A DNA stretch of 64,000 bases from Eledone cirrhosa (taxonomy: Eukaryota), in assembly GCA_964016885.1 (NCBI GenBank), contig OZ024742.1, positions 104,780,001-104,844,000 on the forward strand, written 5' to 3'. Positions 12,230 to 43,398 of the stretch are shown one piece after another. Position 1 is the first letter of the stretch. Each line of letters starts with the position of its first letter. The position numbers were made by a program, and so were the translations under genes. The notes under the pieces are model-generated. The model was given only the letters and a program-made list of their open reading frames with translations, was not told where the DNA came from and ran no database searches.

Positions 12230-12441
12230 ATATATAAATATATATATACACATGCCTATCCATATACATATATGAGGAGATTACAAATCATGAGAGTACT
12301 TAATGAATGTGGAGATGCAGAGTGGGTATAGAGGTTTAATCTCAACCACAGTAGCAAACGCTTTTGGCTTGTGTGTTCAGCAAGCCAAAACCATTTGGTA
12401 TTGCAGTCAAGATTATACCTCTCTCTCTCTATATATATATG

Positions 12442-12518
<77 letters not shown>

Positions 12519-12601
12519 GGAGGTGAGTTTTATTGTAGTACAATAAAGCAATGCAAATATTGGATAAGCAGCACTCTACAGTTTGTAGGACTGGAGTATA
12601 A

Positions 12602-12822
12602 ATAATATAAGATGAAAAGATGGTTAAAAGAGTTCCAAGTATTTTATTATGCGCATTTCAATATGTTGATTTAAAACTTCACTATTCACAAGTGTTTTTT
12701 AACCTTCATATCATGTATCCCTATTTTATCTGATGAAAACGCAGATATCATCTCATGATGATATTTGTTTTTGAAATGCGCATAATAAAATACTTGGAAC
12801 TCTTTTAACCATCTTTTGATCT

Positions 12823-12830
<8 letters not shown>
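12602..12830 (+). mobile_element. Fold-back element with 60-bp inverted arms and an internal hammerhead (Penelope-like pLTR or retrozyme-like remnant)
   Basis: Arms 12602-12661 and 12771-12830 are reverse complements with one mismatch; the right end runs directly into (TA)n. Confidence 0.7.
12722..12792 (+). ncRNA. Minimal type I hammerhead ribozyme
   Basis: Stem I TATTTTAT (12722-12729) / CTGATGA (12730-12736) / 16-position stem II with TCAT loop / GAAA (12773-12776) / palindromic TGCGCA / TA / stem I' ATAAAATA (12785-12792), a perfect 8-bp complement. Confidence 0.8.
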
Positions 12831-12908
<78 letters not shown>

Positions 12909-12953
12909 TAACACAGCTTTGTAGCTTGCTTGAAGCATTGTTGAATAGGAAAC

Positions 12954-13145
12954 ACAAATTTAAATAATTTTGAAAACCACACAAGACATTAGAAAGAAAA
13001 TTAAATCGCTAAGATAACAAAAGAATCGCTAAGATAACAAAATTAAATCGCTAAGATAATTTGCTAAGGTAAGATTTTTTGTTATCTTAGCGATTTAATT
13101 TTATTTCTAATGCATTATTTGGTTTTCAAAATTATTAAAATTTGT
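12954..13145. repeat. Inverted repeat with 69-bp arms and internal triplication of AATCGCTAAGATAA
   Basis: 12954-13022 is an imperfect reverse complement of 13077-13145; the right end abuts (TA)n. Confidence 0.8.
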
Positions 13146-14964: not shown

Positions 14965-15355
14965 CATCTAGTAAAGCCTCCAGCCCACACTGTAAAGTGG
15001 TCTTGATGGCGACATGACAAAAAGTGTCCAGCCCACATTATAAAGTGGTCATGATGGTGACACAGCAAAAAGCACCCAGTCCACACTGTAAAGTGGTCGT
15101 GTAGATATCATGACAAAAAGCACCCAGTCCACACTGTAAAGTGGTTGTACAGGTGTCACAACAAAAACACCCTGTACTCACTGTAAATGAGGTTGGCATT
15201 AGGAAGGGCATTCAGCTGTAGAAACCAAGCCCAAATCAGTTCTGTATGAGCAAGACAAGGTCACCTGACCTGGCATTGCTCACAACAGGATAACTTGTCT
15301 AACCCATGCTAGTGTGGAAAAATGGACATTAAACGGTGATGATGATGATGATGAT
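14965..15355 (+). mobile_element. RTE 3'-UTR fragment with about four 48-bp units
   Basis: Repeated CACTGTAAAGTGG...GACAAAAAGCACCCAG units, then the GGCATTAGGAAGGGCATT tail and (GAT)n. Confidence 0.75.
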
Positions 15356-37730: not shown

Positions 37731-40112
37731 ACAGTGAAAAAAACCCTTCTCTCAGACCATGACATGGTTCTTTGTAACCTGAGATTCCACCAGCCGAAAG
37801 CTAATCCTTTCCAGCCCACCCATTTGATAACATGGATCTCTACAATGCCAACTGGGATGCAATTATGAACGAACTAACACATGTTGACTGGTCTTTTACA
37901 CACGCACACATTTCCACCAACATCAAAACATCTTGGCAGATCTTTGTAGACACTGTCACAAATATATGTACAAAACACACCCCACCAAGACCTGTGAACA
38001 AAACTAAGTGCAGTATCCTCCAAAACAGAAAAACAATTATCAGAAAAATAAAAAGAAGAAACAAAAAATTAACACACTAAAATACTGCCAACAGCAACAC
38101 ACACATTCGACGTCTATCACTCTGCTTGAATCAAATAAATATAACCTCCAACAATGCATGAAGATCATCATCAATAACCAGAGAACAGCTGAAGAGAGGT
38201 GGGCCATTGAGAAAATCAAACTCAACCCCAAAGTGTTCTTTTCATTTGCTAAAAAACACAAGGTCACTGTTTCCACTGTTGGCCCTCTAGTTGATGAAAA
38301 TGGTACACTCAAAGATAATGCCAAAACCATGGGCGAGATACCTCAGAAACAATACTGCTCTGTTTTCAGCAATGCTGATATGGCCGATCTGGGCTGTATC
38401 AGAGATGTTAATCCCCAACACACTATATCAGACATAACGTTTGTCGCCCCTGATGTCTTAGCGGCAATAAACAAAATTAAATACAATTCAGCAGTAGGCC
38501 CCGACAGGTTCCCTGCTTGTGTCCTGAATGTGTGTTGACACCAACTTGCATCTCCTCTTGTTAATCTATGGAGGAACTCACTGGATACTGGCTATATTCC
38601 TGAAAACTTTCTGTCCCAGCCCATTGTCCCAGTCTTCAAAAAGGGAAACAAGTCCCTTGCAGTGAACTACCATCCGATCTCACTCACCTCTCATATTATC
38701 AAAGTATTTGAGAGTGTGGTGAGATCACGAATAACCCACTTTCTTGAAAGCAATAGCCTGCTGAACTCCAACCAACATAGGTTCTGTAATGGAAGGGACT
38801 GCCTAACGCAGCTCCTGCATCACTTTGACGATGTTTTGAGAGCCTTGGGAGAGGGCTCCAGCACTGATGTCATCTACCTTGATTTCAACAAGGCCTTTGA
38901 CAGGGTTGATCATAAGATTCTACTGAAAAAACTATCCAATATTGGTGTCTCTGGAAAGTTACTACAGTGGATCAAATGTTTCCTGACAGACAGAACCCAG
39001 CATGTTGTAGTCAAAGGAGTAAAATCAAGCCCTGCCAAAATCAGCAGTGGCGTCCCACAAGGCACTGTGTTGGGCCCACTTCTTTTCATCATCTACATTA
39101 ATGACATTACTGACATCATCAAGCACAGCAACATAAGAATCTTCACAGATGATTCCAAGGTACAAAGGGTCATCAATGAGGTGGGTGACCGGACTTGCCT
39201 TCAGTCACACCTACTGGCTGTTATCCAATGGGAAGAGATGAATAATATGCTGTTGAATGAGGATAAATTTGAACTAATCCACTTTGGAAAAAAGGATGCC
39301 CTGAAACTACCATACTCTCTTCCTTCAGGTGAAACTCTCGTGGCATCCAATAACATCAGAGACCTAGGAGTAATTGTGGACAACAACATGAGCTGGGCCA
39401 CTCATATAAACAGCAAAGTTGACATGGCCCGCAGAATGTGTTCCTGGATTCTCAGAACTTTCCAGTCGAGAGATATCCACACTGTTATCCTTCTCTTCTC
39501 CATTTTTGCCCACCCCACCTTGAATACTGTTGTCCACTGTGGTCTCCCCACATGAAACAAAGTATTATGAAAGTTGAAGCACCCCAAAGATCGATTACAA
39601 AAAAGATAGTTGCCATGACAGGCCTTGACTATTGGAGTCGATTAGAAAAGCTCAACCTTTATTCTCTCCAACGTTGCTGTGAGCGCTACATTATCTGCAT
39701 GATGTGGAAAATATTCCATCAGCTTTGCCCAAATGATGTTGGCATCACCTTTAATGTACACCCAAGGCTTGGGCCCCGTGCTATCTGCCCACGACAAAAC
39801 TCTCAAAACTCTCACTTGCATCTCATAACAACAATATGGCACAATTATTTCACCTCAATTGGTCCTGCTCTCTTTAATATTGCACAAAACACATTAGAAC
39901 AGAAACAGACCCCATCAAGTTCAAGAAGTCTTTGGACAAATTCCTTCAAGAAATCCCGGATAAGCCTCCTACACCCAGATATACCTCCATAAACAATAAC
40001 TCTCTGCTCGAGTGGGCCATGGTGCCCAAACACTGATTTGTAAGACTTCGCCAGATGGTGCTATTAAGTTAGACATGGCCTGGGCCAATACTGGCCGAAA
40101 CCTATCAAAGTT
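37731..40112 (+). mobile_element. 5'-truncated CR1/L2-group LINE, ORF2 pseudogenised (APE end, RT, C-terminus)
   Basis: Starts in the APE SDH motif (TLLSDHDMV); GPD, NYHPISLTS, YLDFNKAFDRVDH, SGVPQGTVLGPLLF, FTDD, RDLGV and LEYCCPLWSP motifs occur across frameshifted ORFs; flanked on both sides by the same TATATTAACATACA microsatellite. Confidence 0.92.
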
Positions 40113-41404: not shown

Positions 41405-43398
41405 GCCCTGATGGTCCTGCACTTTTTTACACCGCTGTCGTCTTTCATGCGCATCACGTGACCATACCAACATAGTCTTCTCTCAAGTAAACAGCATCTG
41501 ATCCCTCTTATTCTTAATTTTTCACTTAGTTCATTTATGCTTTGCCGTTCACGTATATTACTATTACACATCCAACAGAGCATGCATGCTTCGTTCCTTT
41601 CCAATCTGCACAGGTCCTCTGCACGTAATGCCCATGTCTCACTGCCATGTAGCATACAATCTGCCTTTCATTTTTTAGAGAGAAACCTTTTGTGGCCAAC
41701 AGCGGTATAAGCTCTCTGAACTTTTTCCATCCCGTTCTGACTCTGGCTACTGTACTTTCAGAACACCCTCCACCACTGCTGATTTCGTCTCCCAGGTAAC
41801 GGAAAGTGTCTACTATTTCGATAGAACCATCTGGGCAATAGAAGGAGCTAGTATCCTGTGGACACTTGCTACTTATTGCACCTGAGCATCGGCCACATAT
41901 AAAGTCTACGTTCTTAGATAATTTACCTGTGATCCCACTACATCTTTTATGTACCCATACTTTGCATTTCGGACATAAAATTGAATTTCTGGCTATTCCT
42001 TTCCTACACACTGAGCATGGCCATTTCCCTGAGGGTACCTGTGCCTTATTTTCCTTTCTACAAACTAGGACTTTAGTCTTAGACAAGTTAACTTTAAGGC
42101 CTTTTGATTCTAGGTCATGCTTCCATTTTGGAATTTCTTCTCTAGTTCAGCCATTGATTCAGCTATGAGTGTTAGATTCAGCTATGAGTGTTAGATCTGC
42201 GTATAGGAGTTCCGATGGGCAGCCGGTCTTGAACTCCCCTGTTTTAGCCTGAAGGGCAATAATAAATAGGAGGGGGCTAAGGACAGAGCCTTGGTGAACA
42301 CCAACTTTTACACTAAATTCTTCACAATATTCATTCTTAATTCTAACCTTACTGACTGTTTCATTATACATAGCTTGTATAGCTCTCACAAGCCATTCAT
42401 CTACACCTAGTTTTCTAAGAGCCCACCAGATAATCGAGCAGGGGACTCTGTCAAAGGCTTTCTCCAGGTCTACAAAAGCTAAGTAGAGGGGTTTACTTTT
42501 AGCTAGGCACTTCGCTTGTAGTTGTCGTACAAGGAAAAGAGCGTCTGTGGTACTTTTACCTGACACAAACCCAAACTGCATTTCATCTAGATCAATTCGA
42601 TCTCTGATTAGTTGCGCTATAACTCTTTCTGTTACCTTCATGACCTGGTCAACTAACTTAATGCCTCTATAGTTTCCTCTATCTAGAGCATCTCCTTTAC
42701 CCTTGTAGTAGTTAATGATGATGCTGCTACACCAGTCTTTTGGTATGACCCCATTCTGTATTACTTGGTTAACTATACGGGTGACCATAGTATTTCCCAC
42801 CATTCCAGATGCCTTCAACATCTCAGCAACTATCTCTGAAGACCCAGCTGCCTTGCCTGTCTTCATATCTTTGATTGCCTTACTTATTATACTACCTTTA
42901 ACTTGCACCGCTAGTCCTTCTATTGGATCGATTTGGGGCAGACTATCTTTTTCCCATTTATTCTCCTCATTTAGTAGTCTCTCATAGTGACACTTCCAGG
43001 CTATCTTCTTATCAGTATCAGTGATGGCAAGTACACCGTTATCATTACGGACACACTTCTCCCCAACAATATCACGGTTTTCCTTGACACATTGTCTAGC
43101 AATCCTGAACACCTCACGTTTTTTTGTTCCACCACCAAGTTACTCTCCTCCTGCCAATAGATCTGCTCCAGCCACAGATTTCATCCGTTGCTTTCAGCAG
43201 GTTCACTTTCAAGAATTGCCACTGTTCCTCTATATCGCACGTCTCTAATTGCTCTTCCTTATTGTCAAAGGCATCAAGTAATAAGCTTTTAAATTTGTCA
43301 CTGGCTATGGGGTCCTTCAACTTCCATATTCTTCTCCTCAAGGTAGGCCTCCTCTGTCGTCGAGTACGTCTATTCCTGACTATGAGGTCACTAACTAC
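41405..43398 (-). mobile_element. RTE-clade LINE, truncated and frameshifted, RT plus embedded PHD finger
   Basis: ORF 42159-43112 has NYRGIKL, QFGF, FVDLEKAFDRVP, GVHQGSVLSPLLF and LLYADL (damaged YADD). Downstream frames give KTKVL-[C4HC3]-FRYLGD, LHGSETW and RRLCWYGHVMRM. Confidence 0.92.

What the first reader, a model, noticed from the sequence alone, without database searches (positions are those of the whole stretch)
12602..12830. Hammerhead ribozyme packaged with its own antisense arm
Seen: a complete minimal type I hammerhead on + (8-bp stem I, CUGAUGA, long stem II, GAAA, palindromic UGCGCA stem III, AUA triplet; predicted cut after 12784). It overlaps an AATAAA and runs into (TA)n. 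The upstream arm 12602-12661 is a 59/60 reverse complement of 12771-12830, which covers exactly the GAAA, stem III, cleavage site and stem I' half. Established: minimal hammerheads with palindromic stem III occur in Penelope-like pLTRs and metazoan retrozymes and cleave best as dimers. Inference: a read-through transcript would sequester the ribozyme in a 60-bp duplex (off). An RNA starting inside the spacer, or a duplex weakened by ADAR, could self-cleave. The minus strand of the left arm would supply a free substrate half. This could be a switchable self-cleaving element or simply a by-product of an inverted Penelope insertion.
Basis: partly seen in the sequence, partly recalled or inferred. 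Interest (0 to 1): 0.75.

Follow-up and report, generated by a model that had tools for sequence, protein, structure and literature searches.

The report
Penelope scar recording its capped start
The hammerhead motif and its mirror-image arm are in the sequence as described, but they are the two shortened, head-to-head ends of an abundant Penelope-type jumping gene in a (TA) repeat, so the arm is likely a by-product of insertion rather than an on/off switch, and the family's thousands of copies likely record where its RNA starts and that it was copied uncut.

Summary
In detail: hammerhead motifs at 12722-12792 and a 59/60 inverted arm. The unit is larger, 12516-12830, inside (TA)n. It is a doubly shortened, head-to-head insertion of a Hydra-clade Penelope-like element (PLE) with 20,118 exact arm-end matches and intact 798-809 aa RT/endonuclease ORFs elsewhere in the genome. 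The 'antisense arm' is part of a second, 146-nt inverted copy carrying an 86-nt PLE tail. Arm length varies widely among copies; the window's junction type occurs at 250 places with varied joints, so nothing marks it as a selected switch. Family statistics bear on mechanism: 44 of 49 inverted pairs join one tail end to one short end; 43 of 142 arms stop at the base matching 12661, and untemplated junction bases there end in G in 14 of 25 cases (6 of 29 elsewhere), as expected for a copied cap; truncations show no peak at the ribozyme cut. Cleavage and expression are untested. This scan already read other PLE stubs the same way (e1-9877229). Verdict: ordinary locus of a new family, useful for a PLE mechanism question.

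The parts
12429..12515 (.). Left (TA)n target tract
   Evidence: 60 of 60 tail ends and 70 of 77 short ends in the C1 sample abut (TA)n
12516..12601 (-). PLE tail (86 nt): on the minus strand it is the sequence that follows the pLTR and leads into the 5' UTR and ORF of full-length copies
   Evidence: aligns to L076:1141-1231, which runs on into the 5' UTR and ATG; 92 of 100 listed 5' UTR starts are preceded by the tail (read by hand)
12602..12661 (-). 3' 60 nt of the pLTR in inverted orientation (the 'antisense arm'): inner part of a 146-nt 5'-truncated copy
   Evidence: 59/60 to 12771-12830; length varies among copies
12661..12661 (+). Head-to-head junction, 1-nt overlap; fixed 5' end of many arms, inferred capped transcription start
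   Evidence: 43 of 142 arms end here; G enrichment at -1
12661..12830 (+). Direct pLTR copy (170 nt) from the fixed 5' end to the short 3' end
   Evidence: matches the pLTR after the ORF and 3' UTR of L061, L064, L076
12722..12792 (+). Type I hammerhead with 8-bp stem I, 15-bp stem II and palindromic AUGCGCAU stem III; predicted cut after 12784
   Evidence: activity untested
12784..12789 (+). AATAAA overlapping the predicted cut and stem I
   Evidence: function untested, insertions end in (TA)n and not poly(A)
12831..12910 (.). Right (TA)n target tract

Best explanation
12516-12830 is a short head-to-head insertion of two pLTR ends of a Hydra-clade Penelope-like retroelement in a (TA)n tract, likely made when the element's enzyme cut the tract and copied its sense RNA twice, once from each side. 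Shown: family membership, the tail, variable arm length, one tail end plus one short end per insertion, a fixed 5' end at 12661. Inferred: one cDNA started at the short site and ran 170 nt to the RNA's capped 5' end (right arm); the other started 86 nt further down at the tail site and stopped after 146 nt (left arm); the two cDNA ends were joined over a 1-nt overlap. The hammerhead is the family's pLTR ribozyme, predicted to fold as a dimer and kept by selection in source elements, but templates for insertion were likely uncut. The arm would bury the ribozyme in a read-through RNA, as in any inverted insertion, by accident of geometry.
For: Family: 20,118 arm-end and 16,489 core matches, controls 0. 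Parent: ORFs of 809 and 798 aa open from ATG to stop (L061, L119) with RLRW, SDKT, FDIASYY, YRDD, CxCx5C, CxxC and CxH motifs, matching the Hydra description and alignments in PMC8557442 by eye; Atlas neighbours at 0.95-0.98 carry HTH_animal, GIY-YIG and RVT_1. Pairs: 44 of 49 tail+short, p = 8e-9; both arms share a 4-site haplotype in 44 of 48, chance 0.175; 17 pairs both run into the 3' UTR, 11 both stop at the fixed end, 1 mixed, about 14 expected mixed. Neither window arm can be a copy of the other: the left has the tail that the right lacks, the right has 12662-12770 that the left lacks; where only one arm reaches the fixed end it is the short arm in 3 of 7 (C1 sample) and 21 of 24 (window-type set). 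Fixed end: 14,353 matches, only 6,210 with the parental upstream bases, 2,557 with G at -1 where the parent has C, 747 exact palindromic joints. Untemplated inserts end in G in 14 of 25 there, 6 of 29 elsewhere, Fisher p = 0.011. Public contigs show many left breakpoints (12540-12613) joined to 12659-12663. No truncation peak at the cut: 2 of 30 loci, neighbours 1-4; 4-5 of 100 listed, neighbours 4-9 (by hand). Ribozyme selection: all 8 common stem variants keep pairing, the one common core variant is at N7, stem III has none, 149 arms.
Against: No RNA data, so the start site, cap and lack of cleavage are read from DNA. Some G at -1 comes from the partner arm or from the parental C read on the other strand (4 of 11 G cases in the C1 sample are templated); the junction classifier is rough and the control differs only at p = 0.011. 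Copying of one RNA molecule is not shown: arms share only 3 rare variants against 44 private ones, 4 of 48 pairs differ at a diagnostic site, and earlier notes report arms from two families (not checked here). 45 of 142 sampled arms had no scored partner, 11 of them joined to a partial tail. Pfam and PDB searches found no RT or endonuclease match for the ORF. The sample is the first 37 Mb of one contig.
Confidence: 0.82

Rival explanations
1. A selected, switchable ribozyme: the 60-bp arm is kept to hold the hammerhead off in read-through RNA, and internal starts or A-to-I editing switch it on.
For: Folding is predicted to behave that way: stem I pair probability 0.0 with the arm, 0.11 without, proper double hammerhead as a dimer. 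The inferred start sits at the arm boundary.
Against: Arm length is a continuum; about 250 of roughly 10,000 insertions share this junction type, with many different joints; the neighbouring family at 12905-13145 has the same tail-plus-inverted-arm layout with no hammerhead found in it; no editing footprint; the copy is young (0-3 differences in 166 nt from other copies) and carries an unrepaired mismatch.
Confidence: 0.04
2. Fold-back: one cDNA snapped back on itself (or an antisense RNA self-primed, as proposed in PMC3846280) and the inverted arm is a copy of the first arm.
For: 747 exact palindromic joints centred on the ATAT at the fixed end; arms of a pair are nearly identical (1.5 against 5.9 mismatches per 83 nt); published model.
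Against: A copied arm cannot hold sequence that its template lacks; in the window each arm has 86-109 nt missing from the other, and the short arm is the complete one in 21 of 24 window-type pairs. Arms end at a fixed 5' point of the sense RNA with extra G, which fits a sense template.
Confidence: 0.08
3. A non-autonomous MITE- or SINE-like subfamily that is copied as a fixed 315-bp unit with its arm.
For: 15 of the 30 best BLAST loci share the window's junction.
Against: Those loci were chosen by likeness to the query, belong to several subfamilies whose diagnostic bases are mirrored in both arms, and the exact joint is 8 of 100 in the unselected listing (by hand). Ends are not terminal inverted repeats: the tail lies outside the arm.
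Confidence: 0.05

Closest known systems
Hydra clade of C-terminal EN+ Penelope-like elements, e.g. Hydra-1_Obim and Penelope-13_HM (PMC8557442; passages, section 11, supplement part 2 and passages read)
   Same: RT followed by a GIY-YIG-like endonuclease; RWx, DKT, CxCx5C, CxxC and CxH motifs; no CCHH; (TA)n target; hammerhead in the pLTR; inverted 5'-truncated copy and one-sided tail.
   Different: A different family: hammerhead sequence unlike Hydra-1_Obim's, 15-bp stem II and a dimer-type palindromic stem III where most listed Hydra motifs have 3-7 bp stem II and a 3-4 bp stem III; tail 86 nt against the usual 30-40; element about 3.3 kb with an Asn-rich insert before the linker; about 10,000 insertions.
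Poseidon PAc of Anolis in vitro (PMC11167929; parts 1-2 of 4 and passages read)
   Same: Tail equals the distance between two internal RT start sites; AT-rich target; both strands cut and extended; hammerhead cleavage not needed for insertion, no reads ending at the cut.
   Different: That work found no difference in start site between strands, whereas 44 of 49 insertions here pair one tail start with one short start; it does not address inverted junctions or the RNA 5' end; here both start sites lie upstream of the ORF.
Inverted pLTR units of Adineta vaga Penelope elements (PMC3846280; passages read)
   Same: Head-to-head pLTRs, tail on one arm, palindromes at the junction.
   Different: Explained there by self-priming on an antisense template; the mutually exclusive arm contents here favour two cDNAs from sense RNA.
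Minimal hammerheads of metazoan PLEs (PMC4209133; parts 1-2 of 4 read)
   Same: Type I core, palindromic helix III, solitary copies and opposite-strand pairs 100-700 bp apart.
   Different: No unpaired base after A9, A-U instead of G-C at 10.1-11.1, longer helices I and II.
Non-LTR retrozymes (bioRxiv 10.64898/2026.07.22.740005, part 1 of 5 read)
   Same: Short, non-coding, pLTR-related, type I hammerhead.
   Different: Defined by direct tandem repeats with two or more hammerheads; this unit is inverted and has one.

Membership tests
EN+ Penelope-like element (family level) | Single ORF with RT and C-terminal GIY-YIG endonuclease | tested here: met
   L061 and L119 ORFs; Atlas neighbours; by-eye match to published Hydra alignments. 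Pfam and PDB gave no match. The window copy itself has no ORF.
EN+ Penelope-like element (family level) | pLTRs in partial tandem around the ORF | tested here: met
   L076, L050, L119: pLTR-tail-5'UTR-ORF-3'UTR-pLTR; 244 matches of the 5' UTR start
EN+ Penelope-like element (family level) | Inverted 5'-truncated copy and tail on one end | tested here: met
   window copy; 44 of 49 pairs
Hydra clade | RWK-like, DKT, CxCx5C, CxxC/CxH motifs, no CCHH | tested here: met
   RLRW(T/I), SDKT, CNCRIKNKC, CNLC..E, N..CLH in P0001 against section 11
Hydra clade | (TA)n insertion preference and hammerhead in pLTR | tested here: met
   60 of 60 tail ends, 70 of 77 short ends
Hydra clade | Phylogenetic placement inside the clade | not tested
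   published Hydra sequences were seen only as supplement text; no tree was built
Type I hammerhead ribozyme | CUGANGA and GAAA boxes, NUH triplet, three stems | tested here: met
   stem III only 2-3 bp as monomer
Type I hammerhead ribozyme | Match to an Rfam hammerhead model | tested here: not met
   none at E<=1 or E<=10
Type I hammerhead ribozyme | Structure-preserving variation | tested here: inconclusive
   8 of 8 common stem variants keep pairing, all one-sided (G-U), none compensatory on both sides; subfamilies are related, so p about 0.004 is optimistic
Type I hammerhead ribozyme | Self-cleavage | not testable with these tools
   no assay; no genomic trace of cut templates
Non-LTR retrozyme | Direct tandem units, each with a hammerhead | tested here: not met
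   one hammerhead in the window, inverted layout
MITE | Fixed-length unit bounded by terminal inverted repeats | tested here: not met
   tail lies outside the arm; lengths vary

The most novel reading that the evidence does not exclude
The roughly 10,000 insertions of this one family are a record of the PLE reaction: a two-headed enzyme cuts (TA)n, uses the tail start site on one strand and the short start site on the other, copies the same uncut sense RNA twice, and in about half of events works on the 5' pLTR and runs off the cap, leaving an extra G. That would map a PLE transcription start from DNA alone, replace antisense self-priming as the source of head-to-head pLTRs, explain how thousands of solitary minimal hammerheads arise, and imply that the conserved ribozyme acts at some step other than preparing the template.
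Probability: 0.55. Interest if true: 0.55.

Novelty: new member of a known kind. Interest (0 to 1): 0.3.

Why it matters
The locus itself is an ordinary transposon scar. The family is of use because how PLEs make inverted ends and what their hammerheads do are stated as open in PMC8557442, PMC3846280 and PMC11167929. A young, very large family with intact ORFs, two sharply mapped cDNA start sites and a fixed RNA 5' end gives precise predictions for the existing in vitro PLE assay.

Tried and rejected
Rfam: no hammerhead match. Sequencing runs: no RNA holder listed, which says nothing about expression; contigs of four runs of unknown kind were laid and show variants and joints only. A-to-I footprint in copies: not found. 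Truncation peak at the predicted cut: not found. Fixed-unit MITE or SINE: rejected. Tandem retrozyme: rejected. Naiad or Neptune clade: rejected on domain order and motifs. Second pile-up of 5' ends at the tail end, suggested by L061: 8 of 100 listed 5' UTR starts lack the tail, too few to call. Pfam and PDB searches of the ORF gave nothing useful. Host gene context: 14 of 35 window ORFs scanned, only retroelement RT and a PHD finger found, so whether the insertion lies in a transcribed intron is unknown. Scripts failed through my own indexing errors and were redone; one pair (L207) scored as mixed shows both arms ending at the fixed site. Literature searches for PLE twin priming, untemplated or cap-derived bases at PLE junctions and octopus hammerheads listed no paper whose title or abstract start reports them; most subscription papers are outside the library, and bioRxiv supplements could not be seen.

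Full report
Observation. The region folds better than 200 of 200 shuffles, and two copies are predicted to form a double hammerhead through an 8-bp palindromic stem III. Rfam has no matching hammerhead model.

Boundaries and family. A search of the window's genome returned full-length matches at 91-97%. The 30 loci fetched share 12516-12830 and, with few exceptions, sit in (TA)n on both sides. Exact-pattern counts are 16,489 for the core and 20,118 for the arm end, with 0 for reversed controls, so there are roughly 10,000 insertions. Core matches often come as a minus-strand copy followed by a plus-strand copy 0.1-5 kb away. Fetching 20 such regions showed an ORF between them. Two ORFs are open from ATG to stop, 809 and 798 aa. 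They carry the motifs listed for the Hydra clade in PMC8557442 section 11 and align by eye with the published Hydra proteins; Atlas neighbours carry HTH_animal, GIY-YIG and RVT_1 families, though Pfam and PDB searches did not recognise the ORF. The published octopus family Hydra-1_Obim has a different hammerhead, so this is another family. That the host is a cephalopod is my guess from genome size and repeat content, not a tool result.

What the arm is. In L076 the pLTR is followed by 86 nt and then the 5' UTR and ATG; window 12516-12601 is the reverse complement of those 86 nt. So the left part of the unit is a 146-nt inverted copy made of tail plus 60 nt of pLTR, and the right part is a 170-nt direct pLTR without tail. 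An inverted truncated copy with a one-sided tail is the described layout of PLE insertions (PMC8557442, PMC3846280, passages). Arm length is not fixed: the 49 inverted pairs in a sample of 142 arms from the first 37 Mb of contig C1 span 68-5,136 nt. Junctions like the window's occur at 250 places with many different joints, and public contigs show the same scatter of left breakpoints. The next repeat in the window, 12905-13145, has the same layout with no hammerhead found. The arm therefore needs no function to explain it.

How it was likely made. Three patterns constrain the mechanism. First, 44 of 49 pairs have one tail end and one short end (p = 8e-9), and both arms share a four-site subfamily haplotype in 44 of 48. 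PMC11167929 showed in vitro that a PLE protein extends both target strands and that the tail is the distance between two internal start sites. Second, 60 arms run into the 3' UTR, 43 stop at the base matching 12661 and 39 stop elsewhere; pairs are of one kind in 28 of 29. Genome-wide, only 6,210 of 14,353 matches at that site keep the parental upstream bases and 2,557 have G where the parent has C. Some G is supplied by the partner arm, but untemplated inserts end in G in 14 of 25 cases against 6 of 29 at other truncation points, and 17 of the 100 junctions listed have such a G (by hand). An extra G from copying a cap is recalled from LINE literature, not from a call; an internal promoter is shown for Drosophila Penelope (PMC2377424, passages). 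I infer that 12661 is the RNA start. Third, each window arm has sequence that the other lacks, so neither is a fold-back copy of the other; the short arm is the one that reaches the fixed end in 21 of 24 window-type pairs and 3 of 7 in the C1 sample. Together these favour two cDNAs primed on the two sides of a cut (TA)n tract, copied from sense RNA and joined at their ends, over the antisense self-priming model of PMC3846280. Whether one RNA molecule or two serve as template is not settled: shared rare variants are few (3 against 44 private).

The ribozyme. Across 149 arms, the eight common variants in stems I and II all keep pairing through G-U, the one common core variant is at the free N7 position, and stem III has none, while 18 flank columns vary. 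This suggests selection in source elements, with the caveat that the changes are one-sided and subfamilies are related. Yet truncation points show no peak at the cut, so inserted copies came from uncut RNA, in line with PMC11167929, where cleavage needed the protein and was dispensable for insertion, and with the weak activity reported in PMC4209133. A full-length transcript has two hammerheads about 3 kb apart and could form the dimer; an inverted stub has at most one per strand. No editing footprint was found, and no RNA run was available.

A read-through RNA would bury stem I and an RNA starting at 12661 would not, so the physics is plausible. But this holds for any inverted insertion of the family, and nothing singles out this arm length or locus. 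The proposed free substrate from the minus strand keeps only 2 nt of stem II.

Verdict. Ordinary scar of a new Hydra-clade PLE family. Earlier notes of this scan reached the same class and the two-cDNA idea on other DNA; I had formed that reading before the look-up and tested it here. The fixed, G-marked 5' end and the lack of cut templates are what this family adds; I found no paper on them, within the limits of the library. Interest 0.3; 0.55 if the mechanism is confirmed.

Noticed in passing
window 12905-13145: A second repeat family in the same (TA)n tract with the same layout (about 49-nt one-sided extension plus inverted arms, 80% self-complementary); 1,734 candidates in the genome; no hammerhead found in it.
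   Followed up: partly
flanks of loci L003-L245: A simple descriptor found 19 other hammerhead-like motif classes near family copies, most with palindromic stem III (CTAG, CGCG, TATATA, CTAATTAG, CCGATCGG, GTAC) and some with 10-20 nt stem III that could fold as monomers.
   Followed up: no
L010, upstream of the family copy: A different hammerhead-bearing unit with its own partial inverted arm, between (TA)n tracts.
   Followed up: no
L207 and L067: Both arms of one insertion share a rare variant; in L207 it breaks the stem III palindrome, which suggests that a ribozyme-defective template was inserted or that arms were homogenised later.
   Followed up: no
L061:1640-1665: An ORF-bearing arm begins just after the tail end; 8 of 100 listed 5' UTR starts lack the tail.
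   Followed up: partly
window 12526-12546 and 12784-12789: Each cDNA start site lies a short way after an AATAAA on the sense strand (about 40 nt and 13 nt), and the tail holds a small hairpin with AATAAA on both strands; role unknown.
   Followed up: no
L077: Fragments of a PLE-type RT with a KPADKG motif and of another Hydra-like ORF lie among family copies.
   Followed up: no
window 38539-39555 (+), 42159-43139 (-), 41535-42146 (-): Two reverse transcriptase ORF fragments (RVT_1, E 2e-26 and 3e-21) and a PHD finger, probably broken LINEs.
   Followed up: no
window 14972-15187: Tandem array of a 48-nt unit, 4-5 copies.
   Followed up: no
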